Source: a virus
Lineage: Duplodnaviria > Caudoviricetes
Direction: 5' to 3' (one strand)
DNA: 55,232 nucleotides
Virus record (IMG/VR): IMGVR_UViG_3300020045_002265
Span: 1 to 55,232 of that record
The notes beneath the pieces were generated by a model. It saw only the letters and a program-made list of their open reading frames with translations. It made no database searches and had not been told where the DNA came from. The translations under genes were made by a program, and so were the position numbers. How positions within the stretch are numbered: position 1 is the first letter of the stretch; the number at the start of each line of letters is the position of its first letter. Below are positions 4,038 to 54,128 of this stretch, in pieces.

Positions 4038-4267
4038 CCAATGAAGAATTCTATGAAGCACTGAATGATGAAACATGGAATCCATTTCAACATTTAACAA
4101 AATATGAATATGTTCTTAATCTGAAAACTTTTATTCGATTCACCAGTCATCCATACATCTACGATGCTTATAAGTATTTTTTGAGAGCTGATGGTGGATC
4201 AAGGTTGAAAGAATTTGTATTACACGGGATAACTTTTAAATTGGAAGAAAACAGAAATGACAATTGA
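4034..4267 (+). CDS. hypothetical protein
   Basis: Coupled ORF within the operon. Confidence 0.65.
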   Translation: MTNEEFYEALNDETWNPFQHLTKYEYVLNLKTFIRFTSHPYIYDAYKYFLRADGGSRLKEFVLHGITFKLEENRNDN

Positions 4268-5138
4268 ATTACTAAGACCACAATTAGCAGCCAGTGATGT
4301 CCCAGATATTTACACTCAGGTGAGCTATCCAAAGATCATTCAGCCAAAGCTTGATGGTATTTGCTGCTTAGCTGTGAATGGTGTAGCCATGAGCCGTAAC
4401 ATGAAACCTATCCCTAATCGGTATGTTCAGAAAGTGTTTAAGGAATTAAACCTACATGGATTGCATGGTGAGCTCATGGTGAAGGGTGACTTCAATGATG
4501 TGCAATCAGCAATTATGCGTGAAGATGGTGAGCCTGAGTTTGAGTATGTTGTTTATGATCATTGGATGACTGGTGAGGTTGCTTATCACCTAAGACAAAG
4601 TTTATTGTCAACAGGGGTGGCGGTATTAAACAGTCAACATATTAAAATGGTGGATTACTGGTGGGTTTACTCTGCTAAAGATTGTGAAGATATTCTAAAC
4701 CAACTCATTGAATTTGGTTATGAAGGCGCAATGTTACGCGACCCTAACTCACTTTACAAACAAGGTCGTCATACATTGAAATCTCAAGCTCTGATGAAGC
4801 TTAAGAAATTCCTCGATGATGAAGCTGTCATTATTGGATTTGAAGAGAAGCTTACCAATACCAACGTTAAAGAGTTGGATGAACGTGGATACTCTAAACG
4901 TTCTAGTAAGAAAGAAGGGATGGTTCCAGCTGGCACATTGGGAGCATTGATTGTTCGATGGAAAGGTGTTGAATTTAATATTGGATCTGGATTTGATGAT
5001 GCTATGAGACAATACATCTGGGATAACCGTGAAAGATTACTCGGTAAGTTAGTGACATTCCGTTATCAAGAATTATCGAAGTATGGTGTTCCAAGATTTC
5101 CAACTTTCAAAGTTTTATGGGAGGGTGATAAGGTATGA
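4257..5138 (+). CDS. ATP-dependent DNA ligase
   Basis: KLDG adenylation motif, GEL, EGAMLR, MKLK, GSGFDD and PRFP. Confidence 0.95.
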   Translation: MTIELLRPQLAASDVPDIYTQVSYPKIIQPKLDGICCLAVNGVAMSRNMKPIPNRYVQKVFKELNLHGLHGELMVKGDFNDVQSAIMREDGEPEFEYVVYDHWMTGEVAYHLRQSLLSTGVAVLNSQHIKMVDYWWVYSAKDCEDILNQLIEFGYEGAMLRDPNSLYKQGRHTLKSQALMKLKKFLDDEAVIIGFEEKLTNTNVKELDERGYSKRSSKKEGMVPAGTLGALIVRWKGVEFNIGSGFDDAMRQYIWDNRERLLGKLVTFRYQELSKYGVPRFPTFKVLWEGDKV

Positions 5139-5239
5139 TGATTGCAGCAGTATTGATGACAACTGGATTGTTAATGGTAATTGGCTATTGGGTATTATTG
5201 CTAGTAAATGGAAAGCCTAAGGATAAGATTGATGAATGA
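5135..5239 (+). CDS. small membrane protein (34 aa)
   Basis: MMIAAVLMTTGLLMVIGYWVLLLVNGKPKDKIDE; GAGG RBS; ATGA overlaps at both ends. Confidence 0.6.
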   Translation: MMIAAVLMTTGLLMVIGYWVLLLVNGKPKDKIDE

Positions 5240-5964
5240 TTGGAGTTGTTAGCGAGATGACTTGCTATGTTTACTGGGTGAAATCTCCCGATATGGGTGA
5301 TTTATTCTCACAAGGTTATGTTGGTATCAGCTATTCACCAGAGATCCGGTTCAAACAACATAAAAGCAATGCCCTGACAAACTCACATCACCAGTACAAA
5401 GACGAGTTCAGGGAATCCTTGCTTAGTGGTAGTTGTGAATTAAAAATCTTAATCAGTTCAACTAGGGAATATTGCTTAGATTTAGAAAGAAAAATACGAC
5501 CCGAGCTTAGTGTAGGTTGGAACTCTGCAATTGGGGGAGATGGTGGCAATAGATTTAAACATGGCTTAACTGACAGTCGTTTAAGTAAAACCTACTACAA
5601 CCTAATAAACAGAGCTTTTGAAACTAATGAGGTGTTCTGGGATGGTTGGTTAGGGGAGGGGGGTCTTGTAGAGTTTTCTAAATTTTACAAGGAATTTGAA
5701 AGTGTTGAAGGGAATTTTACTCTGAGAGAGAAAGGTAAAGGGTACAACCCTGAAAATATTATCAAAATTAAAAGGTCGGAAATAATTAATAAAGCATACA
5801 GGAAATATGATATAGGCGATGGTGGATTTTACTCTGTAAATGAACTCGGTATTAAATTTAACTTAAAACCTAATACCATATCTAGCAGAATGAGAGACGG
5901 ATGGACTGTCAGACAAGCTGTCGGGCTAGACTACAGAAAACCTAAAAGGAGAAAATATGAGTGA
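5236..5964 (+). CDS. GIY-YIG family homing endonuclease
   Basis: YVYWV...YVGIS...RFKQH and GWN..IGG motifs; C-terminal HTH-like segment. Confidence 0.75.
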   Translation: MIGVVSEMTCYVYWVKSPDMGDLFSQGYVGISYSPEIRFKQHKSNALTNSHHQYKDEFRESLLSGSCELKILISSTREYCLDLERKIRPELSVGWNSAIGGDGGNRFKHGLTDSRLSKTYYNLINRAFETNEVFWDGWLGEGGLVEFSKFYKEFESVEGNFTLREKGKGYNPENIIKIKRSEIINKAYRKYDIGDGGFYSVNELGIKFNLKPNTISSRMRDGWTVRQAVGLDYRKPKRRKYE

Positions 5965-48804: not shown

Positions 48805-48878
48805 TGGCAGGCCATGTAGGTATCGAACCCACGTCTTCAGGGTTGGAGCCTGACATTCTACCATTGAACTAACGACCT
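48805..48878 (-). tRNA. tRNA-Trp(CCA)
   Basis: Cloverleaf; TCAGG-CTCCAAC-CCTGA; CCA end. Confidence 0.9.
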
Positions 48879-48884
48879 ATAATT

Positions 48885-48999
48885 TGGTGCAGAGGGTAGG
48901 AATCGAACCTACGTTATTTCACTTATGGTTTGAATTGAATTTTAAGTTGTTTGCTGCAATAATCCTTAACAGGATATAGTCCAACATTTCAACCTCTGC
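48885..48999 (-). ncRNA. tRNA-like RNA (acceptor stem, T-arm, CCA) carrying a permuted CAGCAA-motif stem (unit H)
   Basis: GCAGAGG/CCTCTGC-ACCA and GTAGG-TTCGATT-CCTAC. No D-arm or canonical anticodon arm. Internal ATCCT-GTTA-AGGATTATTG-CAGCAAAC. Confidence 0.75.
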
Positions 49000-49004
49000 A
49001 TATT

Positions 49005-49080
49005 TGGTGGAATCAGTGAGAATCGAACTCACCACAGAAAAGGTGCAAACCTCTCTCGCCCCCTTGGCACATGTGACCCC
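49005..49080 (-). tRNA. tRNA-Ala(TGC)
   Basis: G3.U70 pair; loop TTTGCAC; CCA end. Confidence 0.85.
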
Positions 49081-49084
49081 ATAT

Positions 49085-49159
49085 TGGTGCATTCTCTTGG
49101 TAACGATCCAAGCTTTTACCCTCTTCAGGGGTACGCTAATCCATCTCAGCTAAGAATGC
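49085..49159 (-). tRNA. tRNA-Phe(GAA)
   Basis: TACCC-CTGAAGA-GGGTA; GCATTCT/AGAATGC-ACCA. Confidence 0.88.
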
Positions 49160-49160
49160 T

Positions 49161-49248
49161 TGGAGGAAGATAAAGGAATCGAACCCTCAACGCTCATCAC
49201 ATTGGCGACTGATTTCAAGTCAGTTTGTCCCCATGGACGCTACCTTCC
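49161..49248 (-). tRNA. tRNA-Ser(TGA)
   Basis: ACTGA-CTTGAAA-TCAGT; long variable arm; CCA end. Confidence 0.88.
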
Positions 49249-49364
49249 AATAAATTTGGTCGGGCTTTATTTTTGTATCTCATTTGGCCTTCTCCCGTTA
49301 GAACTTATATTGCTATTATTCTTTTGCCACTTCATTCAGGTGCTACCTGACAACTTCTTAAATT

Positions 49365-49440
49365 TGGTACTAGACCAGAGATTCGAACCATCACTTTCAA
49401 GATTTTAAGTCTTGTGCCTCTGCCGTTGGGCTAATGGAGC
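49365..49440 (-). tRNA. tRNA-Leu(TAA), degenerate, possibly a pseudo-tRNA
   Basis: Good D-arm and CAAGA-CTTAAAA-TCTTG, but two mismatches each in the acceptor and T stems and a short variable region. Confidence 0.55.
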
Positions 49441-49448
49441 ATTTAATT

Positions 49449-49525
49449 TGGTCTCTATGGCTGGACTCGAACCAACAACCCCTCGCTTCCAAAGCGAGCC
49501 GTCTACCAATTGACATTACACAGAG
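49449..49525 (-). tRNA. tRNA-Pro(TGG)
   Basis: CTCGC-TTTGGAA-GCGAG; CTCTGTG/CATAGAG-ACCA. Confidence 0.88.
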
Positions 49526-49583
49526 ATAATAAGTTTTGAATATTTAACGTCTGGATAACTATGAACCACGACAAAAATACTAT

Positions 49584-49658
49584 TGGCGACACTTATGGGT
49601 TACGATCCCATGACCTTTCCCGTGACAGGGGAGTGCTCTACCTCTGAGCTAAAGTGCC
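49584..49658 (-). tRNA. tRNA-Asp(GTC)
   Basis: Loop CTGTCAC; GGCACTT/AAGTGTC-GCCA. Confidence 0.88.
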
Positions 49659-49663
49659 ATATT

Positions 49664-49739
49664 TGGAAGCGAATACAGGAGTCGAACCTGTAACTAAAGG
49701 TTATGAGCCTTTCGGGATACCATTTCCACACAATTCGCA
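49664..49739 (-). tRNA. tRNA-Met(CAT), initiator-like
   Basis: AAAGG-CTCATAA-CCTTT; 1:72 mismatch; CCA end. Confidence 0.82.
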
Positions 49740-49751
49740 CTTAATACTTTA

Positions 49752-49822
49752 AACAGAATGGGTTTTAGCTACTAAGCATTAATGGAGTTTAGTAAGTAAG
49801 GTTTTTGCTGTATCCATTCTTC
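49752..49822 (-). ncRNA. CAGCAA-motif (Y-like) RNA, unit G, inside the tRNA cluster
   Basis: AGAATGG/CCATTCT terminal stem, CAGCAAAA 10 nt from the stem start, 3' GTT; inner TACTAA/TTAGTA hairpin. Confidence 0.75.
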
Positions 49823-49826
49823 AATT

Positions 49827-49901
49827 TGGCAGGAGATGGTGGCTTCGATCCACCCACTAGAGATTCAAAGTCTCGTGTTTTACCAAATAAACTAATCTCC
49901 A
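49827..49901 (-). tRNA. tRNA-Gln(TTG)
   Basis: Loop CTTTGAA; CCA end. Confidence 0.85.
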
Positions 49902-49916
49902 ACTATAAATACTTAT

Positions 49917-49990
49917 TGGGGTGACCTATGGAGTTCGCATCCACATATTCCTCCTTCACAGGGAGGGTCTTTACATTAAGATAAGGCCAC
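49917..49990 (-). tRNA. tRNA-His(GTG), atypical
   Basis: CCTCC-CTGTGAA-GGAGG; C73; T-loop TGCGAAC; the encoded -1 base is C, not G. Confidence 0.78.
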
Positions 49991-50003
49991 GCCAATAAAT
50001 ACT

Positions 50004-50079
50004 TGGCACTCTCACCGAGAGTCGAACTCGGATTACCGGCTTGAAAGGCCAGCGTTTTAACCAATTAAACTATAACAGT
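50004..50079 (-). tRNA. tRNA-Glu(TTC)
   Basis: CTGGC-CTTTCAA-GCCGG; one G:G mismatch in the acceptor stem; CCA end. Confidence 0.82.
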
Positions 50080-50483
50080 ATTAATCCTGCATGAAACTTT
50101 CTGTGGCAATTAGAACACAGAACCATACACTTTCTAATCTCAGCTTTGAAAGCTTTTGTAGAGTACCTAGACATTCTTGCTGGGTGGTCTTCCTTTATAG
50201 AAGGGTCTTTGTGATGGAGGTCAAGCGCAACTGGCTCTTTCTCTCCACAAACATAACAACCACACATACGTTTATATCTATTAACCAACTCCTTGTTGTA
50301 GCTTTTAACTTGCTTATTCCTGTCTCTAATAGCTTTCCTTTTCTTCGGGTTTGTTAGGTAGTTAGAATTGTTGTTTCTTTTACTACAATCCCTGCACTGC
50401 GTTTGTAAACCATCTTTTCTGGATGAGTTGACGTTGAACTCACTTAGTTCTTTATCAGTTGAACACTTATAGCAATGTTTCAC
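50070..50483 (-). CDS. HNH endonuclease inserted in the tRNA cluster
   Basis: GTG start after an AAGGA RBS; CxxC...CxxC zinc finger, CYVCG...LDLHH.DP...C..LCSNCHRKFH. Confidence 0.8.
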   Translation of the reverse strand: MKHCYKCSTDKELSEFNVNSSRKDGLQTQCRDCSKRNNNSNYLTNPKKRKAIRDRNKQVKSYNKELVNRYKRMCGCYVCGEKEPVALDLHHKDPSIKEDHPARMSRYSTKAFKAEIRKCMVLCSNCHRKFHAGLILL

Positions 50484-50497
50484 AAATTTCCTTAATA

Positions 50498-50573
50498 TGG
50501 AGCTACGACTGAGATTTGAACTCAGAACCTCTTGATTACAAATCAAGTACACCGCCAATTGTGTTATCGTAGC
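50498..50573 (-). tRNA. tRNA-Thr(TGT)
   Basis: CTTGA-TTTGTAA-TCAAG; GCTACGA/TCGTAGC-TCCA. Confidence 0.9.
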
Positions 50574-50574
50574 T

Positions 50575-50649
50575 TGGCTCCACATCTAGGCATCGAACCT
50601 AGCTCACACGGATTAACAGTCCGGCTGCACACCTTGTGCATTACATGGA
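50575..50649 (-). tRNA. tRNA-Asn(GTT)
   Basis: CGGA-CTGTTAA-TCCG; T-arm CTAGG-TTCGATG-CCTAG; CCA end. Confidence 0.85.
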
Positions 50650-50674
50650 ATTAAAACTACACTGTATACCTAAT

Positions 50675-50702
50675 AGTATACACTATATTTCTCATTTGTC
50701 AA
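50675..50702 (-). promoter_or_regulatory. sigma70-type promoter for the tRNA cluster
   Basis: TTGACA-16 nt-TATACT on the - strand. Confidence 0.7.
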
Positions 50703-50725
50703 TAGCTAAAGTGAAATATTTTTCA

Positions 50726-50938
50726 TTATTCACAATTTTTATTGCTAAATCTCTTGTTTTCTCTTGTTAAATCTTCATGTGCATAGAATTTATGATCCAA
50801 ATGATCTGGGTTCAGCACATAGACTCTGACACAAGTACTGCAAAATTCCTCTGGAACGACTGTACCATCGGGTAACTTTATAGTCTGCTCTAGTTCATAA
50901 TCTTCTAACTTATTATCACAAGACTTACATCTACTCAT
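50726..50938 (-). CDS. small Zn-finger-like protein
   Basis: CKSC...CSTC; 70 aa. Confidence 0.65.
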   Translation of the reverse strand: MSRCKSCDNKLEDYELEQTIKLPDGTVVPEEFCSTCVRVYVLNPDHLDHKFYAHEDLTRENKRFSNKNCE

Positions 50939-50954
50939 ATTGTTCTTCTTAAAT

Positions 50955-51031
50955 TGGTGCGGGTATAGGGACTCGAACCCTAACCATCTGGGTGGAAGCC
51001 AGAGATGCTAACCGTTAAACACCATACACGC
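50955..51031 (-). tRNA. tRNA-Gly(TCC)
   Basis: TCTGG-CTTCCAC-CCAGA; CCA end. Confidence 0.88.
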
Positions 51032-51040
51032 ATTATTAAA

Positions 51041-51102
51041 TTGTTGTGGCCGGGTGCGAAACCGGCATAAGGACTTGCGTATCGCCTACGCATTCACAAC
51101 AA
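51041..51102 (-). ncRNA. small three-way-junction RNA with complementary loops
   Basis: TTGTTGTG/CACAACAA closing stem; TGCGTA-GGCGA-TACGCA; GCCGG-TTTCGCAC-CCGGC. Confidence 0.6.
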
Positions 51103-51106
51103 TATT

Positions 51107-51180
51107 TGGAGTCTGAGATAGGATTCTAACCTACATAACATGGATTTGCAATCCAGCGCATAACACTCTGCCACCCAGAC
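51107..51180 (-). tRNA. tRNA-Cys(GCA)
   Basis: Loop TTGCAAA; GTCTGGG/CTCAGAC-TCCA (U73). Confidence 0.85.
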
Positions 51181-51664: not shown

Positions 51665-53086
51665 TTAATTTAAATTATAACGCTCCGACATAATAACCGC
51701 AAGCATTTGCTCATATGGGGTTGTGTTTGGGTCTTCATTTTTGAAGATTGACTTCATCAATGATGGACTAAATCCACTAACCAAAGTTGTACCAGCTTCA
51801 CCGGCAGTCACAGGGCTTGTTGTATTTGAAGCATTCAAGTTCCAAAATACAATCTGAGGTCTGCTATATCCAGCGGCTTTGTAAAGCTCATCAATTTTAT
51901 TGAAGAGGGTTACGTTGTTGTTGCCTGAGAATGCACGATTAAATTGCATATCCGAAAATACAACAATTACTTCCGGCATCTCTTCAACTGCAACTTTGTT
52001 CTGCACAGCTGCATTAAGCACAACAGTAAATACTTTCTCTAAGTTGGTGCTACCACCCCAAGGCGCTTTGTAAGTCTGGCGTACACGTTCAGTCAATGTA
52101 CCGCTAACCTTCATAATCTGGGGATTATCATGGAAAGTAATAAACATGTCCTTGAATGCACCCTCTAACTTACCCGACAAGTATAAACCTAAACTTGCAG
52201 CAATGTCAATACACAACACTTTAGAATTACCACCAGCTGGACATTCCATTGAACTGGATACATCAATCAATGGCAGGATTCTTTTAGAATTACCTTCCAA
52301 GTAATTTGGCAAAGCATTCCATTGGGCATCCGCTACAGCACTTACACCATACTTTACTGACTTAACAATATCATAAGGGTATACAGCACCGGCATTGACC
52401 TTAGCCTCGCCTTTAGTTAAGGATTGAATGTATTCACCATATCTCTCTGGTGCATTACGCCCAAATGCCTTCTGATAACGAGCTGAGGCCACTGATGGCA
52501 ACTTACCAAACTCAATACCATTCCACTCTTTAGCACACATTTGCTGTTCAACTGTAGAGCGATTAGCTACTACATGTTTACGCCATTCTTTCTCATTATG
52601 GAAGCCCATAAGCTTACGCAAAGCTTTGGCGGTGTTACCTTTAATGGGAGTCCATTTGTAGGCTAAGCCATTACCAGCTTTAAGCGCATCAGTAAAACAC
52701 TTTAATGCTGTACTTACCACATTAATATTGCCAACATTCTCTGCAATCCACAAAAGGTCATCATAACGACCAAGTTCAGGGATTTTGGTAACTATAGTGA
52801 CCATCTTCTGATTGGCTTGATAACTCTCCGCAGCGAGTTTAAATAGGTCACGGAACAACTGACGTTCACCAGCACCCTCACGGACATCTCGAAGCCATTG
52901 CAAGATACGCAATGCTTCGTCTTGGTTCTCTGCCAAGGCAGCTATAAATTTTGAGTCAATGTTCTTTCCACGGCTTGCTCCAGCCAGATAAAATAAATCT
53001 ACGTTTGCATTTGTAGAAGTGTGGAAAGCTTTAGCACCATTCTGGGTGGTTGCTGTTGCATTCAATGCATTAAATAATGTTGTCAT
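51665..53086 (-). CDS. DUF2828-type, Ro60/TROVE-like protein with C-terminal vWA domain
   Basis: Helical N-terminal region (T.NGA, RDVREGAGER, GRYDDL, KW.P, PSVA..RY..AF); MIDAS motif DVSSSM, GSTNL, SDMQF, IVFWNL, VSGFSP; AGGAG RBS. The Ro60 relationship is inferred. Confidence 0.75.
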   Translation of the reverse strand: MTTLFNALNATATTQNGAKAFHTSTNANVDLFYLAGASRGKNIDSKFIAALAENQDEALRILQWLRDVREGAGERQLFRDLFKLAAESYQANQKMVTIVTKIPELGRYDDLLWIAENVGNINVVSTALKCFTDALKAGNGLAYKWTPIKGNTAKALRKLMGFHNEKEWRKHVVANRSTVEQQMCAKEWNGIEFGKLPSVASARYQKAFGRNAPERYGEYIQSLTKGEAKVNAGAVYPYDIVKSVKYGVSAVADAQWNALPNYLEGNSKRILPLIDVSSSMECPAGGNSKVLCIDIAASLGLYLSGKLEGAFKDMFITFHDNPQIMKVSGTLTERVRQTYKAPWGGSTNLEKVFTVVLNAAVQNKVAVEEMPEVIVVFSDMQFNRAFSGNNNVTLFNKIDELYKAAGYSRPQIVFWNLNASNTTSPVTAGEAGTTLVSGFSPSLMKSIFKNEDPNTTPYEQMLAVIMSERYNLN

Positions 53087-53106
53087 TCTATTCTCCTTTG
53101 TTTATT

Positions 53107-53182
53107 AACAGAATCAATTGTGATGAGATCACAGTACGCCGGTAAGCCCGAAGGCTTGGATTGTTTGCTGAAGTGATTCTTC
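53107..53182 (-). ncRNA. CAGCAA-motif (Y-like) RNA, unit A
   Basis: AGAATCA/TGATTCT stem, CAGCAAAC, 3' GTT; cargo AAGCC-TTCG-GGCTT and TGTGAT-CTC-ATCACA hairpins. Confidence 0.8.
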
Positions 53183-53188
53183 AAACAT

Positions 53189-53376
53189 AACAGATACAGG
53201 ATTCCGATTCATTTAACCATCATACTCGGTATATTTCTGGCGATCAAGTTTCTTCTTGCAATACCCAGTCTTCTACTGATAATATCCCAAGTCGTCTTAT
53301 TGGCTCGTTAACTGCTTTCCATTAAGCTTTAGATTGGGAATCCATTTAGTGTATTTTGTTGCTGAACTGTATCTTG
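53189..53376 (-). ncRNA. CAGCAA-motif (Y-like) RNA, unit B (188 nt)
   Basis: AGATACAG/CTGTATCT stem, CAGCAACA, 3' GTT; long multi-hairpin cargo. Confidence 0.75.
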
Positions 53377-53382
53377 AAACAT

Positions 53383-53504
53383 AACAGATTAGTTGTTTTC
53401 TTTTGCTCTACCAACTGAGCTAATATACGCCACCAAAGTGTTCACGTATATACAGGACTCGAACCTGTGACACAAAGTTTGTATTGTCGCTGTAACTAAT
53501 CTTC
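53383..53504 (-). ncRNA. YrlA-like RNA with a circularly permuted tRNA domain, unit C
   Basis: AGATTAGTT/AACTAATCT stem, CAGCGACA; T-arm ACAGG-TTCGAGT-CCTGT, closed acceptor ATATACG/CGTATAT, then D-arm TAGCTCAGTTGGTAGAGC. Confidence 0.88.
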
Positions 53505-53510
53505 AATTTA

Positions 53511-53577
53511 AACAGGCTGCAATCAACGGTTTTAGATTAAAAGTCTAATGTTTGATTTGTTTGCTGTAAGCAGCCTT
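53511..53577 (-). ncRNA. CAGCAA-motif RNA carrying a tRNA-Lys(UUU) anticodon stem-loop, unit D
   Basis: AGGCTGC/GCAGCCT stem, CAGCAAAC; inner ATCAA/TTGAT and TTAGA-CTTTTAA-TCTAA. Confidence 0.82.
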
Positions 53578-53586
53578 TAATTCTTT

Positions 53587-53711
53587 AACGGAATGTATTT
53601 ACTGTACGTGTGCTACCATTACACCATCAACAGGCTTACGCCCAGATTGCAGGACTCGAACCCACTCCACGATCTTCAAATGATAAGTAATTTATTGCTG
53701 TAAACATTCCT
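53587..53711 (-). ncRNA. YrlA-like RNA with a circularly permuted tRNA domain, unit E
   Basis: GGAATGT/ACATTCC stem, CAGCAATA; T-arm GTGGG-TTCGAGT-CCTGC, GGGC-GTAA-GCCT capped acceptor-like stem, D-arm TGGTGTAATGGTAGCAC. Confidence 0.82.
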
Positions 53712-53719
53712 AAAACTAT

Positions 53720-53781
53720 AACAGAGAGCTGTTTGCTTCTTACGGCCTATGCAAGAGTTTTGTTTGCTGTAAGCTCTCTTC
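53720..53781 (-). ncRNA. CAGCAA-motif (Y-like) RNA, unit F
   Basis: AGAGAGCT/AGCTCTCT stem, CAGCAAAC, 3' GTT; inner TCTTGC-ATAGGCC-GTAAGA hairpin. Confidence 0.8.
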
Positions 53782-53797
53782 AAATTTCAATGTAACC

Positions 53798-53825
53798 ATA
53801 TTACCACATTTTTCAAATTTTGCAA
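53798..53825 (-). promoter_or_regulatory. sigma70-type promoter driving the RNA array and vWA gene
   Basis: TTGCAA-16 nt-TAATAT with extended -10 TG, 16 nt upstream of unit F. Confidence 0.6.
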
Positions 53826-53855
53826 CTACTTTCTTAGATCATTTTAGTATTAAAA

Positions 53856-54128
53856 CTATCTACTTAATAAGTCTTTCATAATTTCATCAAATGACTGTGT
53901 TGCTGGATCAAATAGCTTAAACAGACAACTACCATGAAACAATTTATCCTCAATTCCACCTAGTAAATAGGCGAAGCACAAATGCTTATCACCATTACTT
54001 GTTGTCTGCATACCATAGTATACATTCACTATTTGATAAAAGCCAGCTAACTCTGGCATTCTTTCAAGCTTTAATTCTACCCACTCGCCAACTTGGAAAT
54101 AAGGACTATCTCTCACTCTGATTCCCAC
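53856..54128 (-). CDS. hypothetical protein
   Basis: FQVGEWV motif; coupled ORF series. Confidence 0.6.
   Translation of the reverse strand: MGIRVRDSPYFQVGEWVELKLERMPELAGFYQIVNVYYGMQTTSNGDKHLCFAYLLGGIEDKLFHGSCLFKLFDPATQSFDEIMKDLLSR

What the first reader, a model, noticed from the sequence alone, without database searches (positions are those of the whole stretch)
53511..53577. Unit D displays a perfect tRNA-Lys(UUU) anticodon stem-loop
Seen: TTAGA-CTTTTAA-TCTAA (53532-53548), a 5-bp stem with the canonical 7-nt Lys loop, on the family handle. No tRNA-Lys gene is in this window. Established: tRNA-Lys(UUU) is the target of the anti-phage anticodon nucleases PrrC and PARIS AriB. Inference: a decoy or inhibitor for such nucleases, or a bait for LysRS or wobble-modifying enzymes.
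Basis: partly seen in the sequence, partly recalled or inferred. Interest (0 to 1): 0.8.

Follow-up and report, generated by a model that had tools for sequence, protein, structure and literature searches.

The report
Phage Y-like RNA displaying tRNA-Lys anticodon arm
A tRNA-rich phage encodes, next to a Ro60-like RNA-binding protein, a small scaffold RNA whose tip is an exact copy of a lysine tRNA anticodon arm, one of a widespread and apparently undescribed set of phage RNAs that display different anticodons.

Summary
On the minus strand, 53548-53532 reads TTAGA-CTTTTAA-TCTAA: five Watson-Crick pairs and a 7-nt loop. It caps a 63-nt unit (53576-53514) closed by a 7-bp stem, with the shared motif UUACAGCAA.

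Six such units lie upstream of a 473-aa gene (Pfam DUF2828/DUF7788) whose predicted fold matches Ro60, and a seventh lies in the downstream tRNA array. The units are therefore Y-RNA-like. Two siblings carry YrlA-type permuted tRNA domains.

Unit D belongs to a conserved class:
- 14 of 44 small handle units from related phage loci carry a CU-NNN-AA hairpin, against 0.25 expected.
- The stems covary (96% of cells paired, 5 of 5 arm pairs compensatory).
- The triplet changes between units (UUU, CUU, UGU, UCU, UGA and others).
- The same 17-mer is the anticodon arm of real tRNA-Lys(UUU) genes in 17 of 65 bacterial matches.
- One environmental variant differs from the window only by three compensatory pair swaps in this stem.

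tRNA-Lys anticodon-arm mimicry on a Ro-like scaffold is well supported. The decoy or inhibitor role remains inference, although the Bas63 homologue gp130 is reported to counter a defence system. I rate it a new variant of the Y RNA/YrlA kind, of high interest.

The parts
53514..53576 (-). Unit D: a complete handle unit (Y-RNA-like small RNA) with an anticodon-arm mimic at its tip
   Evidence: It is the CM R1 hit 53508-53581 at 74.6 bits.
53570..53576 (-). 5' strand of the closing stem P1 (AGGCUGC)
   Evidence: Pairs with 53514-53520. In the family, P1 is 100% paired and 5 of 7 pairs covary.
53514..53520 (-). 3' strand of the closing stem P1 (GCAGCCU). The shared tail GUUUAA follows at 53513-53508.
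53561..53569 (-). Conserved single-stranded handle motif UUACAGCAA. It occupies the position of the GNCGAA Ro-binding motif of YrlA.
   Evidence: CAGCAA is invariant in alignment A2. Position compared with the paper passage.
53521..53557 (-). Helix P2 (53557-53552 with 53526-53521) enclosing the anticodon-arm mimic and its internal loop
   Evidence: The equivalent 3-bp helix covaries in relatives.
53532..53548 (-). Anticodon-arm mimic. Stem: 53548-53544 with 53536-53532. Loop CUUUUAA: 53543-53537. UUU triplet: 53541-53539.
   Evidence: Identical to natural tRNA-Lys(UUU) arms. Three compensatory pair swaps in an environmental variant.
53724..53778 (-). Handle unit 1: a small unit with a 6-bp hairpin and loop AUAGGCC, which is not anticodon-like
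53590..53710 (-). Handle unit 2: a YrlA-type permuted tRNA-like insert (T arm, closed acceptor-like stem, D arm)
   Evidence: The arms were read by eye.
53387..53501 (-). Handle unit 4: a YrlA-type permuted tRNA-like insert
   Evidence: Rfam YrlA partial hit at 53399-53476, 32.9 bits, below the gathering score of 69. Also.
53193..53373 (-). Handle unit 5: a 181-nt unit whose insert is unassigned
53110..53180 (-). Handle unit 6, next to the gene. It carries a UUCG-capped hairpin and the hairpin GUGAUCUCAUCAC (53132-53120), which recurs in L002, L004 and L005.
49755..49820 (-). Seventh handle unit, inside the tRNA array between tRNA-Gln and tRNA-Met
   Evidence: CM R1 hit at 35.4 bits. Fold. Neighbouring tRNAs.
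51665..53086 (-). Gene for a 473-aa Ro60-like protein (helical repeat ring plus vWA domain with a MIDAS motif); Pfam DUF2828 and DUF7788
48805..51180 (-). tRNA array downstream of the gene. It contains no tRNA-Lys.

Best explanation
Unit D is a small, non-coding, Y-RNA-like RNA.

Its closing stem and the adjacent UUACAGCAA strand form the handle. I infer that the phage's Ro60-like protein, encoded directly downstream, holds the RNA by this handle.

The tip is a faithful mimic of the tRNA-Lys(UUU) anticodon arm, which is the one part of tRNA that classical YrlA lacks. The resulting RNP would present this arm to a protein that recognises the tRNA-Lys anticodon arm.

The most likely partner is a host tRNA-directed nuclease or other anticodon-arm-reading defence factor, which would be sequestered, blocked or handed to a degrading partner. 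On this reading the unit is one cartridge of a phage counter-defence kit. Sister units with other anticodons would address other tRNA-specific factors.

Shown: the anatomy, the conservation, the covariation, the identity to natural tRNA-Lys arms, the Ro60-like predicted fold, and the linkage to tRNA arrays.

Inferred: binding of the handle by the protein, expression and processing of the unit, and the identity of the partner.
For: Protein:
- The AF2 model (pLDDT 80.8, pTM 0.81) gives 12 Foldseek PDB hits at E <= 0.001, and all 12 are Ro60/TROVE. The best is 1yvr at E 2.7e-9, TMq 0.64.
- The MIDAS residues D275, S277 and S279 are invariant in 34 homologues.

Linkage of RNA and gene:
- All 107 CM matches (E <= 1) in the window and 80 homologous loci lie on the gene's strand.
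- A finder that uses only the handle gives 134 top-score units on the gene strand against 5 on the other strand.

Mimicry:
- 14 of 44 distinct small units selected by the handle alone carry a CU-NNN-AA hairpin. Shuffles give 0.25 +/- 0.52, maximum 3 in 200.
- In 71 distinct units, 96.0% of cells are paired against 72.8% shuffled (0 of 500 shuffles reach it) and 31-47% when the partners are slid. All 5 arm pairs show compensatory change.
- The triplets vary while C32 U33 and A37 A38 stay fixed.
- L078:2058-2113, inside a handle unit, scores 45.9 bits on Rfam tRNA over model positions 7-64 of 71. That is a D arm, a Lys-UUU arm and a T arm without an acceptor stem.
- The exact 17-mer lies in ARAGORN-called tRNA-Lys(UUU) genes at 17 of its 65 exact matches in the genome collection.
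- A 151-nt environmental contig differs from 53496-53626 at only 6 positions, and these are three compensatory pair swaps in the arm. A 222-nt contig from an RNA library is identical over 53511-53587 but has unlike flanks.

Counter-defence link:
- bas63_0130 is a homologue. It is 94.4% identical in DNA to the REP8 gene, and the REP8 gene product is 41.5% identical to the window protein by tblastn.
- The PhageMaP preprint reports gp130 as a counter of the ppl defence system (passages read).
- PARIS AriB recognises the tRNA-Lys anticodon stem-loop (passages read).
Against: - No binding, cleavage or protection data exist for any ASL-type unit.
- Ends and expression are not shown. The only RNA-library support is one short contig at depth 3.9, which could be contaminating DNA.
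- 14 of 19 UUU-type hits lie in loci that also encode a real tRNA-Lys(UUU). The phages already have the replacement-tRNA countermeasure, so a decoy may be redundant.
- The Felixounavirus units, including those of Bas63 where the counter-defence phenotype was reported, have handle units whose loops are not anticodon-like, for example CAAGAAA. The protein's function therefore does not require an anticodon mimic.
- A turnover nuclease would cleave a simple decoy.
- The alignment used for the covariation count was fitted to the model. In addition, 37 of its 57 sources were fetched with a pattern that fixes the loop flanks and the closing A-U pair.
- The sigma-70 promoter scan was not above shuffles: 17 sites found against 16.1 expected.
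Confidence: 0.45

Rival explanations
1. Recruiter of tRNA-maturation or modification enzymes. The anticodon-arm mimics, like the T/D/acceptor mimics of YrlA-type units, would tether host enzymes that read anticodon loops (for example t6A37, i6A37 or wobble-U modification enzymes) or tRNA-processing enzymes to the Ro60-like ring. The RNP would then serve quality control or maturation of the phage's own large tRNA set rather than counter-defence.
For: - Units sit in tRNA-sized slots of tRNA arrays. All 59 units that have a tRNA in their locus are co-oriented with the nearest tRNA, and 39 of those 59 lie within 20 nt of one.
- 14 of 19 UUU-type hits coexist with a real tRNA-Lys(UUU).
- Every triplet seen ends in U or A and is followed by A37 A38. 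From recalled knowledge, this is the context of tRNAs that receive t6A or i6A.
- Salmonella YrlA is modified by the tRNA enzymes DusA and TruB (paper passage).
- Ro60 is a non-coding-RNA quality-control protein (paper passages).
Against: - No modification or processing enzyme has been linked to this family.
- The restriction to U36 or A36 could simply reflect A+T-rich sequence. In the pattern-fetched set the loop flanks were imposed.
- The only reported phenotype of a family member is counter-defence.
- The fast compensatory turnover of the arm stem between near-identical relatives looks more like an arms race than housekeeping.
Confidence: 0.2
2. Relic or structural cap. The units descend from tRNA genes, and the anticodon-like hairpin is kept only as a stable cap or as a gate for the Ro-like ring. 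The triplet drifts freely and has no anticodon-specific partner.
For: - The family shows a continuum from permuted full tRNA-like units, through acceptor-less cloverleaves, to arm-only units. That fits stepwise reduction of tRNA-derived RNAs.
- Many small units, including window unit 1 and the Felixounavirus units, have loops that are not anticodon-like.
- Y RNAs are proposed to gate the Ro60 cavity (paper passage).
Against: - C32, U33, A37 and A38 are kept while stems and triplets change across proteins only 43-57% identical.
- The enrichment of CU-NNN-AA loops is about 50-fold over shuffles.
- A weak A/U-rich 5-bp stem (-0.4 kcal/mol alone) is a poor choice for a mere cap.
- Unit D is 100% conserved over 77 nt between relatives whose flanks have diverged.
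Confidence: 0.2
3. Degenerate tRNA-Lys gene fragment or chance hairpin, with no RNA product of its own.
For: - The window has degenerate tRNA-like sequences, such as 49368-49440 at 24.9 bits.
- Expression is not demonstrated.
Against: - There are no D, T or acceptor remnants around the arm.
- The arm is embedded precisely in the handle architecture shared by more than 100 units.
- Chance expectation is 0.023 per window.
- Covariation supports a folded RNA.
Confidence: 0.05

Closest known systems
Bacterial and phage Y RNAs of the YrlA type with Ro60/Rsr (Chen et al. 2014, PMC4201824; structure preprint 10.1101/312249; Rfam RF02553)
   Same: - Small RNAs encoded beside and co-oriented with a Ro60-fold protein gene.
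- The 5' and 3' ends pair into a stem, with a conserved purine-rich motif on the 5' strand just inside it.
- The distal module mimics tRNA.
- Several RNAs occur per locus.
- Units 2 and 4 of the window have the YrlA topology (T arm, closed acceptor, D arm), and unit 4 gives a partial YrlA hit.
   Different: - The protein is the DUF2828/DUF7788 branch. It gave no Pfam TROVE hit and no phmmer hit to PDB sequences.
- The motif is UWCAGCAA rather than GNCGAAN0-1G.
- Unit D has none of the T, D or acceptor elements. Instead it shows the anticodon loop, which YrlA lacks ('YrlA lacks the anticodon loop').
- Unit D gives no Rfam YrlA match.
- Units are often scattered through tRNA arrays.
Thermus phage phiLo Ro60 with Yrl1 and Yrl2 (PMC12135203)
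   Same: - A phage-encoded Ro60-fold protein with Y-like RNA genes directly upstream of it.
- The phiLo structures (9kop, 9l5y) are among the fold matches.
- The authors propose an anti-defence role through host PNPase (passages).
   Different: - The phiLo RNAs were identified by a CGAA motif in a stem-bulge-stem structure.
- 'Anticodon' occurs 0 times in that paper's main text.
- There are two RNAs there, against seven here.
Bas63 (Escherichia phage JohannRWettstein) gp130, from the PhageMaP preprint 10.1101/2024.10.10.617714
   Same: - Same protein family and same gene order, with the gene followed by a tRNA array.
- Three unannotated handle units lie between its tRNAs.
- It is reported to counter the ppl defence system and noted to look like Ro60. 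The authors only guess that some annotated tRNAs might be Y RNAs.
   Different: - In the close relative REP8, the one loop read base by base is CAAGAAA, which is not anticodon-like.
- No RNA partner was defined in the preprint passages I read.
Phage T5 tRNA-Lys that neutralises PARIS (PMC11464382)
   Same: - A phage RNA countermeasure centred on the tRNA-Lys(UUU) anticodon stem-loop.
- AriB recognises that stem-loop and cuts between positions 40 and 41, and a U-A to A-U swap in the stem gives resistance.
- Between relatives, unit D varies by exactly such stem pair swaps.
   Different: - The T5 RNA is a complete, functional tRNA that replaces the cleaved host tRNA.
- Unit D has no acceptor, D or T arms and cannot act in translation. 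It could only bind, distract or recruit.
Natural tRNA-Lys(UUU) anticodon arm
   Same: - 17 of 17 nt are identical to the anticodon arm of ARAGORN-called tRNA-Lys(UUU) genes at 17 of the 65 exact matches. The record titles name Ignavibacteria, Kapabacteria, Chloroherpeton, Bacteroidota, Defluviitaleaceae and Hyphomicrobiales.
- The loop is the same as in E. coli tRNA-Lys (sequence printed).
   Different: Only the arm is present. It is flanked by a 2-nt and a 5-nt internal loop and a helix that leads into the handle, not by D and T arms.

Membership tests
Y RNA / YrlA (Rfam RF02553) | Encoded beside, and on the same strand as, a Ro60-family protein gene | tested here: met
   - Six units lie 24-692 nt upstream of the gene.
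- The fold of the product matches Ro60.
- All 107 CM matches in the window and 80 homologous loci are on the gene strand.
Y RNA / YrlA (Rfam RF02553) | 5' and 3' ends form a stem that carries the conserved Ro-binding motif GNCGAAN0-1G on the 5' strand | tested here: not met
   The stem is present and covaries. The motif is UUACAGCAA in the equivalent position, not GNCGAA (paper passage).
Y RNA / YrlA (Rfam RF02553) | tRNA-like domain with a T arm, a D arm and a closed acceptor stem | tested here: not met
   Unit D has only the anticodon-arm-like hairpin. The sibling units 53590-53710 and 53387-53501 do have such a domain.
Y RNA / YrlA (Rfam RF02553) | Score at or above the Rfam gathering threshold (69 bits) | tested here: not met
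   No YrlA match overlaps unit D. Unit 4 scores 32.9 bits.
Y RNA / YrlA (Rfam RF02553) | Physical binding to the Ro60 orthologue | not testable with these tools
   Needs RIP or EMSA.
tRNA (Rfam RF00005), tRNA-Lys | Cloverleaf with acceptor stem, D arm and T arm | tested here: not met
   ARAGORN and Rfam give no tRNA call at 53508-53581.
tRNA (Rfam RF00005), tRNA-Lys | Anticodon arm: 5-bp stem, 7-nt loop, U33, purine 37, anticodon UUU | tested here: met
   Identical to the arms of real tRNA-Lys(UUU) genes at 17 of 65 exact genome matches.
Ro60 / TROVE proteins (the partner protein) | Helical-repeat ring followed by a vWA domain with a MIDAS motif | tested here: met
   - All 12 Foldseek hits at E <= 0.001 are Ro60/TROVE and cover the full length.
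- DxSxS is invariant.
- This rests on a predicted model (pLDDT 80.8).
Ro60 / TROVE proteins (the partner protein) | Sequence match to Pfam TROVE or to solved Ro60 sequences | tested here: not met
   Pfam gives only DUF7788 and DUF2828 at E <= 0.01. phmmer against PDB sequences gives 0 hits at E <= 1.
Decoy or inhibitor of anticodon nucleases (a functional class, not a sequence family) | Binds, or is cleaved by, a tRNA-Lys-specific nuclease and protects the phage | not testable with these tools
   There is only indirect support: mimicry, stem pair swaps between relatives, and the reported counter-defence phenotype of the Bas63 homologue.

The most novel reading that the evidence does not exclude
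tRNA-rich phages carry a modular, exchangeable library of anticodon-arm 'cartridges' mounted on a common Ro60-like RNP scaffold. Each cartridge would neutralise, by capture on the ring, a host tRNA-specific nuclease or toxin of matching anticodon specificity. The triplet and stem of a unit would then predict which defence it defeats, and stem pair swaps would track the host's tRNA or the nuclease's recognition. This would be a second, RNA-programmed arm of the phage tRNA arms race, alongside replacement tRNAs.
Probability: 0.25. Interest if true: 0.9.

Novelty: new variant of a known kind. Interest (0 to 1): 0.78.

Why it matters
Y RNAs and Ro60 are conserved from bacteria to humans, yet the purpose of the tRNA mimicry in bacterial Y RNAs is still open.

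This phage family supplies the missing piece of the mimic. It displays anticodon arms with many different triplets, on a handle that is easy to recognise by sequence, and it does so in phages that also carry large tRNA sets.

That makes the question testable. The RNAs are small, the protein partner is encoded next door, and one homologue (Bas63 gp130) already has a reported counter-defence phenotype in an E. coli K-12 phage. The candidate targets, tRNA-Lys-directed nucleases such as PrrC and PARIS, are established laboratory systems.

If the arms do capture anticodon-specific factors, phage genomes would contain a readable catalogue of which host tRNAs are under attack. The scaffold could also be used to display arbitrary RNA hairpins.

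The finding has a practical side for annotation. Hundreds of cultured phage genomes (710 records carry the protein) probably contain unannotated small RNA genes between their tRNAs.

Tried and rejected
- blastn (distant mode) of the whole array 53090-53860 against 50,697 phage records gave no match. The handle is too short and the inserts too variable for BLAST.
- phmmer of the protein against PDB sequences gave 0 hits. The relationship to Ro60 appears only at the fold level.
- The Rfam hit 'Dicty_Class_I_RNA' on unit D (29.1 bits, gathering score 41.5, E 0.027) and a similar one in L182 I regard as chance.
- The sigma-70 promoter scan found 17 sites against 16.1 in shuffles. TTGCAA/TAATAT-like hexamers upstream of the arrays were seen by eye in several loci but are not statistically supported.
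- I rejected the idea that the Lys mimic stands in for a missing tRNA-Lys. 14 of 19 UUU-type hits share their locus with a real tRNA-Lys(UUU).
- I looked for RNA-repair genes (RtcB, RNA ligase, Pnkp) in the window. None was found among the 23 distinct ORFs scanned with Pfam or PHROGs. The other ORFs were not scanned and the contig is about 61% complete.
- Sequencing runs: all 10 listed runs hold small shares, at most 0.11 of the sampled words. The four that I laid are contigs, which cannot show RNA ends or expression levels. Uncovered parts are not interpreted. The high depth over 53404-53423 and 53451-53472 comes from ordinary tRNAs of other organisms that share D-arm and T-arm sequence.
It was rewritten and rerun.
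- The Annual Review on bacterial Ro60 (PMC10870794) is not held.
- Searches for prior descriptions found no paper on DUF2828-linked RNAs or on Y-like RNAs that display anticodon loops. Subscription-only papers are not searched.
Full report
**1. What is at the coordinates**

The window is a single IMG/VR viral record of 55,232 bases, estimated 61% complete. Everything relevant is on the minus strand. Reading 53548 to 53532 gives TTAGA CTTTTAA TCTAA, which is five Watson-Crick pairs around a 7-nt loop with C32, U33, UUU, A37 and A38.

The hairpin caps a 63-nt unit (53576-53514) with these parts:
- a 7-bp closing stem (53576-53570 with 53520-53514);
- the single-stranded motif UUACAGCAA (53569-53561);
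- a 6-bp helix (53557-53552 with 53526-53521);
- an internal loop, then the hairpin.

RNAfold returns exactly this as both MFE and centroid: -14.7 kcal/mol, z = -3.21, and 1 of 200 shuffles folds as well. The 17-mer alone is barely stable at -0.4 kcal/mol.

A 5-bp Watson-Crick stem around CTTTTAA occurs once in the window. Shuffled windows average 0.023, and 6 of 300 have one or more.

ARAGORN finds 12 tRNAs, none of them Lys. Rfam adds one more tRNA at 49920-49990 (48.2 bits), which reads as His (GUG) from its loop. It also gives a sub-threshold tRNA-like at 49368-49440. The observation, including 'no tRNA-Lys in this window', is confirmed.

**2. The surroundings**

Six units with the same handle lie head to tail between 53778 and 53110. 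The handle is a 7-bp stem, then U-W-CAGCAA, then a variable insert, then the stem's 3' strand followed by (U)GUUA.

The ATG of a 473-aa ORF (53086-51665) follows immediately. After it come a small ORF and the tRNA array at 51180-48805. A seventh unit sits inside that array at 49755-49820.

Units 2 and 4 carry a T arm, a closed acceptor-like stem and a D arm, in that order. This is the permuted topology of YrlA, and unit 4 gives a partial Rfam YrlA hit (32.9 bits, below the gathering score of 69).

The phage is a contractile-tailed virus with ribonucleotide reductase, terminase, portal and sheath genes.

**3. The protein**

- Pfam gives DUF7788 (E 9e-47) and DUF2828 (E 1e-23) but no TROVE hit. 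PHROGs calls it 'RNA-binding protein'. phmmer against PDB sequences finds nothing.
- An AlphaFold2 model built on 34 homologues has pLDDT 80.8 and pTM 0.81.
- That model gives 12 Foldseek hits at E <= 0.001, and all 12 are Ro60/TROVE structures. They include Xenopus Ro (1yvr, E 2.7e-9, TMq 0.64), human Ro60, D. radiodurans Rsr and the Ro60 of Thermus phage phiLo.
- The MIDAS residues D275, S277 and S279 are invariant.

The gene therefore encodes a Ro60-fold protein of a divergent branch, and the handle units are in the position of Y RNAs. In YrlA, a GNCGAAN0-1G motif near the 5' end is thought to be the Ro contact (paper passage). Here UWCAGCAA occupies the same place, so the architecture is the same but the sequence differs.

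**4. Relatives**

The search for related loci confirmed 167 of 175 candidate stretches in viral contigs and kept 80 loci, with 43-57% protein identity.

A finder that uses only the handle gives 134 top-score units on the gene strand and 5 on the other strand. A covariance model built from ten arm-type units gives 107 matches at E <= 1 in the window plus 80 loci. All 107 lie on the gene strand.

The protein is also in 710 cultured-phage records, including Felixounavirus, KVP40-like, Listeria A511-like, Campylobacter and Mycobacterium phages. Some are annotated 'Ro-like RNA binding protein'.

Handle units are present and unannotated in several cultured phages:
- Escherichia phage REP8 has three model hits, plus one YrlA-type unit that I read by eye, all among its tRNAs.
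- Bas63/JohannRWettstein has three hits.
- KVP40 and Citrobacter phage Ci1 have one hit each.

**5. Is the anticodon-like loop conserved or swapped?**

I first selected units by the handle alone, which is blind to the insert. Of the 44 distinct small units (<= 80 nt) from the window and 80 loci, 14 carry a hairpin with a CU-NNN-AA loop and at least four inner pairs. Dinucleotide shuffles give 0.25 +/- 0.52, with a maximum of 3 in 200. For the larger units the count is 3 of 67 against 0.87 expected.

An earlier, looser count (Y-U ... R loops) gave 21 against 4.1 +/- 2.1. About eight of those 21 are T loops.

The triplets seen in that unbiased set are UUU, CUU, UGU, UCU, UGA, GGA and CGA. In permuted full tRNA-like units they are UCU, GAA and GCA.

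This pattern forces A31-C32-U33 and A37-A38-U39. It brought many more units.

Combining both sets, 73 model hits at E <= 1e-7 (71 distinct) were aligned.
- 96.0% of cells are paired, against 72.8 +/- 0.9% in shuffles (0 of 500 reach it) and 31-47% when the partners are slid.
- The arm helix is 95.3% paired, and all 5 of its pairs change on both sides.
- The closing stem is 100% paired, and 5 of its 7 pairs covary.
- Caveats: this alignment is fitted to the model, and 37 of the 57 sources came from the forcing pattern.

Triplet tally:
- Unconditioned set, 19 distinct units: UGU 4, UGA 4, UCU 3, UUU 2, CUU 1, CGU 1, CGA 1. That is 16 of 19 with CU-NNN-AA. The CGU unit (L008) actually has an 8-nt loop, and the alignment placed the extra A in the stem.
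- Pattern-fetched set, 52 distinct units: UUU 17, UGU 8, UCU 5, UGA 5, and single or double cases of AUU, GCU, GUA, CUU, CAU, GGA, UUA and GCA. Eight units have other loops.

Homologues keep the arm and its loop frame, and they swap the triplet.

**6. Evidence that the hairpin is tRNA mimicry and not just a hairpin**

(a) Other handle units contain unmistakable tRNA parts together with an anticodon arm.
- L078:2036-2126 holds a D arm, a Lys-UUU arm and a T arm. Its interior (2058-2113) scores 45.9 bits on Rfam tRNA over model positions 7-64 of 71, which means everything but the acceptor stem.
- L077:1734-1847 is a permuted, complete tRNA-like unit with an Arg-UCU arm.
- The orthologous units L073:1863 and L077:1865 differ in the middle letter of the triplet, GAA against GCA.
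- L094, L182 and L191 show further D-arm/arm/T-arm units, read by eye.

(b) The exact 17-mer of unit D has 65 exact matches in the one-genome-per-species collection. Seventeen of them lie inside ARAGORN-called tRNA-Lys(UUU) genes, as their anticodon arm. The record titles name Ignavibacteria, Kapabacteria, Chloroherpeton, Bacteroidota, Defluviitaleaceae and Hyphomicrobiales. This is a lead to the host, nothing more.

(c) Natural variation.
- A 151-nt contig from a freshwater run covers 53496-53626 with six differences. These are at 53533-53535 and 53545-53547, and they convert TTAGA/TCTAA into TCTAA/TTAGA. That is three fully compensatory pair changes in the arm. The loop and the other 125 positions are unchanged.
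- A 222-nt contig from a soil metatranscriptome is identical over 53511-53587, but its flanks are unlike the window. One flank reads as the start of a different handle unit.

The unit therefore behaves as a conserved cartridge, and its arm stem is the one place that changes.

**7. Context within tRNA arrays**

Of the 73 hits, 62 have a 7-nt CU..A loop, and the other 11 were left out of this tally. Of those 62, 59 have a tRNA in the fetched locus.
- In all 59 the nearest tRNA is on the same strand.
- In 39 of 59 the nearest tRNA is within 20 nt.

The units occupy tRNA-sized slots, so the processing of neighbouring tRNAs would release them. That is an inference.

14 of 19 UUU-type hits lie in loci that also encode a real tRNA-Lys(UUU). 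The mimic is therefore not a stand-in for a missing tRNA.

**8. How it most likely works**

Established for the wider family, from paper passages:
- Y RNAs bind Ro60 through the stem-proximal motif.
- They tether Ro60 to other proteins, for example PNPase, and gate its cavity.
- YrlA's tRNA-like domain is recognised by tRNA enzymes.

Classical YrlA lacks the anticodon loop, and unit D supplies exactly that. An arm alone cannot be charged or decode, so its role must be to be recognised.

Two facts point to counter-defence:
- The PhageMaP preprint reports that deleting Bas63 g130 sensitises the phage to the ppl system, and that complementation rescues it. I confirmed that bas63_0130 is the homologue of the window's gene.
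- PARIS AriB recognises the tRNA-Lys anticodon stem-loop, and a single U-A to A-U swap in that stem abolishes targeting. That is the same kind of change that separates unit D from its environmental variant.

I therefore favour an RNP in which the Ro-like ring holds the handle and presents a tRNA-Lys arm to an arm-reading host factor, most plausibly a tRNA-directed nuclease (confidence 0.45).

Points against this reading:
- There are no functional data for any arm-type unit.
- The Felixounavirus units are not anticodon-like.
- A real tRNA-Lys usually coexists with the mimic.

Rivals:
- Recruitment of anticodon-loop modification or processing enzymes for the phage's own tRNAs (0.2).
- A tRNA-derived structural cap with no anticodon-specific partner (0.2).
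- A pseudogene or chance hairpin (0.05).

**9. Comparison with what is known, and novelty**

The system works like Ro60/Y RNA and contains YrlA-type members. Unit D fails three defining features of YrlA: the motif sequence, the T/D/acceptor domain and the Rfam score. It is also not a tRNA.

My literature searches and the passages I read turned up no description of RNAs linked to DUF2828-type proteins or of Y-like RNAs that display canonical anticodon loops. The nearest statements are:
- a 'potential anticodon arm' with a 6-nt loop in D. radiodurans Yrn1;
- the PhageMaP guess that some Bas63 tRNAs might be Y RNAs.

Subscription papers, the Annual Review (not held) and all supplements could not be checked. 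I rate the finding a new variant of a known kind.

**10. Verdict**

The 'tRNA-Lys anticodon arm on a family handle' reading is right and generalises to a widespread class with interchangeable anticodons. The decoy or inhibitor mechanism is plausible but untested. Interest 0.78.

Noticed in passing
window 48885-48999 (-): A 115-nt tRNA-like RNA. It has a perfect 7-bp acceptor stem, an encoded ACCA end and a T arm. Its middle holds the handle motif UGCAGCAAACAA preceded by a closed hairpin AUCC-UGUUAA-GGAU. This looks like a handle closed by its own tail, the inverse topology of YrlA. MFE -28.6 kcal/mol, z = -3.44, and 0 of 200 shuffles fold as well. Rfam gives only weak partial tmRNA hits here.
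   Followed up: partly
window 49003-49078 (-): A second tRNA-like piece (acceptor-like stem, T arm, CCACCA end) that ARAGORN does not call. Rfam gives a partial tmRNA hit of 17.5 bits. Its fold is no better than shuffles (z = +0.73).
   Followed up: partly
window 49749-49825 (-): A seventh handle unit inside the tRNA array, between tRNA-Gln and tRNA-Met. Its tip is a 6-bp helix with a 9-nt loop region and is not anticodon-like.
   Followed up: partly
window 49920-49990 (-) and 49368-49440 (-): ARAGORN misses a tRNA at 49920-49990 (Rfam 48.2 bits) whose loop reads CTGTGAA, i.e. His GUG. There is also a sub-threshold tRNA-like at 49368-49440 (24.9 bits) with a UAA triplet and a mismatched acceptor stem.
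   Followed up: partly
window 53193-53373 (-): Handle unit 5 has a 160-nt insert of unknown nature. Long units in relatives (150-270 nt) share conserved blocks, such as CTGGAGCC ... GAGGAGTTTCGATAAGTCTCCTC, and may mimic another RNA.
   Followed up: no
window 53120-53132 (-); L002, L004, L005 gene-proximal units: The hairpin GUGAUCUCAUCAC is conserved in the unit nearest the gene in the window and its three closest relatives. In L004 and L005 it also occurs in the first unit of the array.
   Followed up: no
L124:10568-10636; L008:6453-6523: One arm-type unit has the triplet UUA, which would pair with the stop codon UAA. Another has an 8-nt loop, CUCGUAAA.
   Followed up: no
L014, L093, L181 (phage tRNA arrays): ARAGORN calls several oddities in these arrays: a tmRNA and a 'tRNA-Pyl' (CTA) in L014, a 'tRNA-SeC' (TCA) and a four-letter anticodon (tttg) in L093, and a four-letter anticodon (caag) in L181.
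   Followed up: no
L275 (Bas63, MZ501086.1) 4249-4326, 4416-4484, 4871-4949; L084 (REP8) 4498-5290: Handle units in these well-studied E. coli Felixounavirus genomes are unannotated. In Bas63, one overlaps the opposite-strand hypothetical CDS bas63_0137, which may therefore be a spurious gene call.
   Followed up: partly
L082 (Citrobacter phage Ci1) 5967-6080: A 114-nt feature annotated 'tRNA-Pseudo-AAC / tRNA-OTHER' lies just downstream of the Ro-like gene. It may be a YrlA-type unit.
   Followed up: no
window 53404-53423 and 53451-53472: The D-arm and T-arm sequences of unit 4 are letter-identical to those of ordinary tRNAs in unrelated organisms. Many high-depth contigs in three runs join them across a normal anticodon arm.
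   Followed up: no
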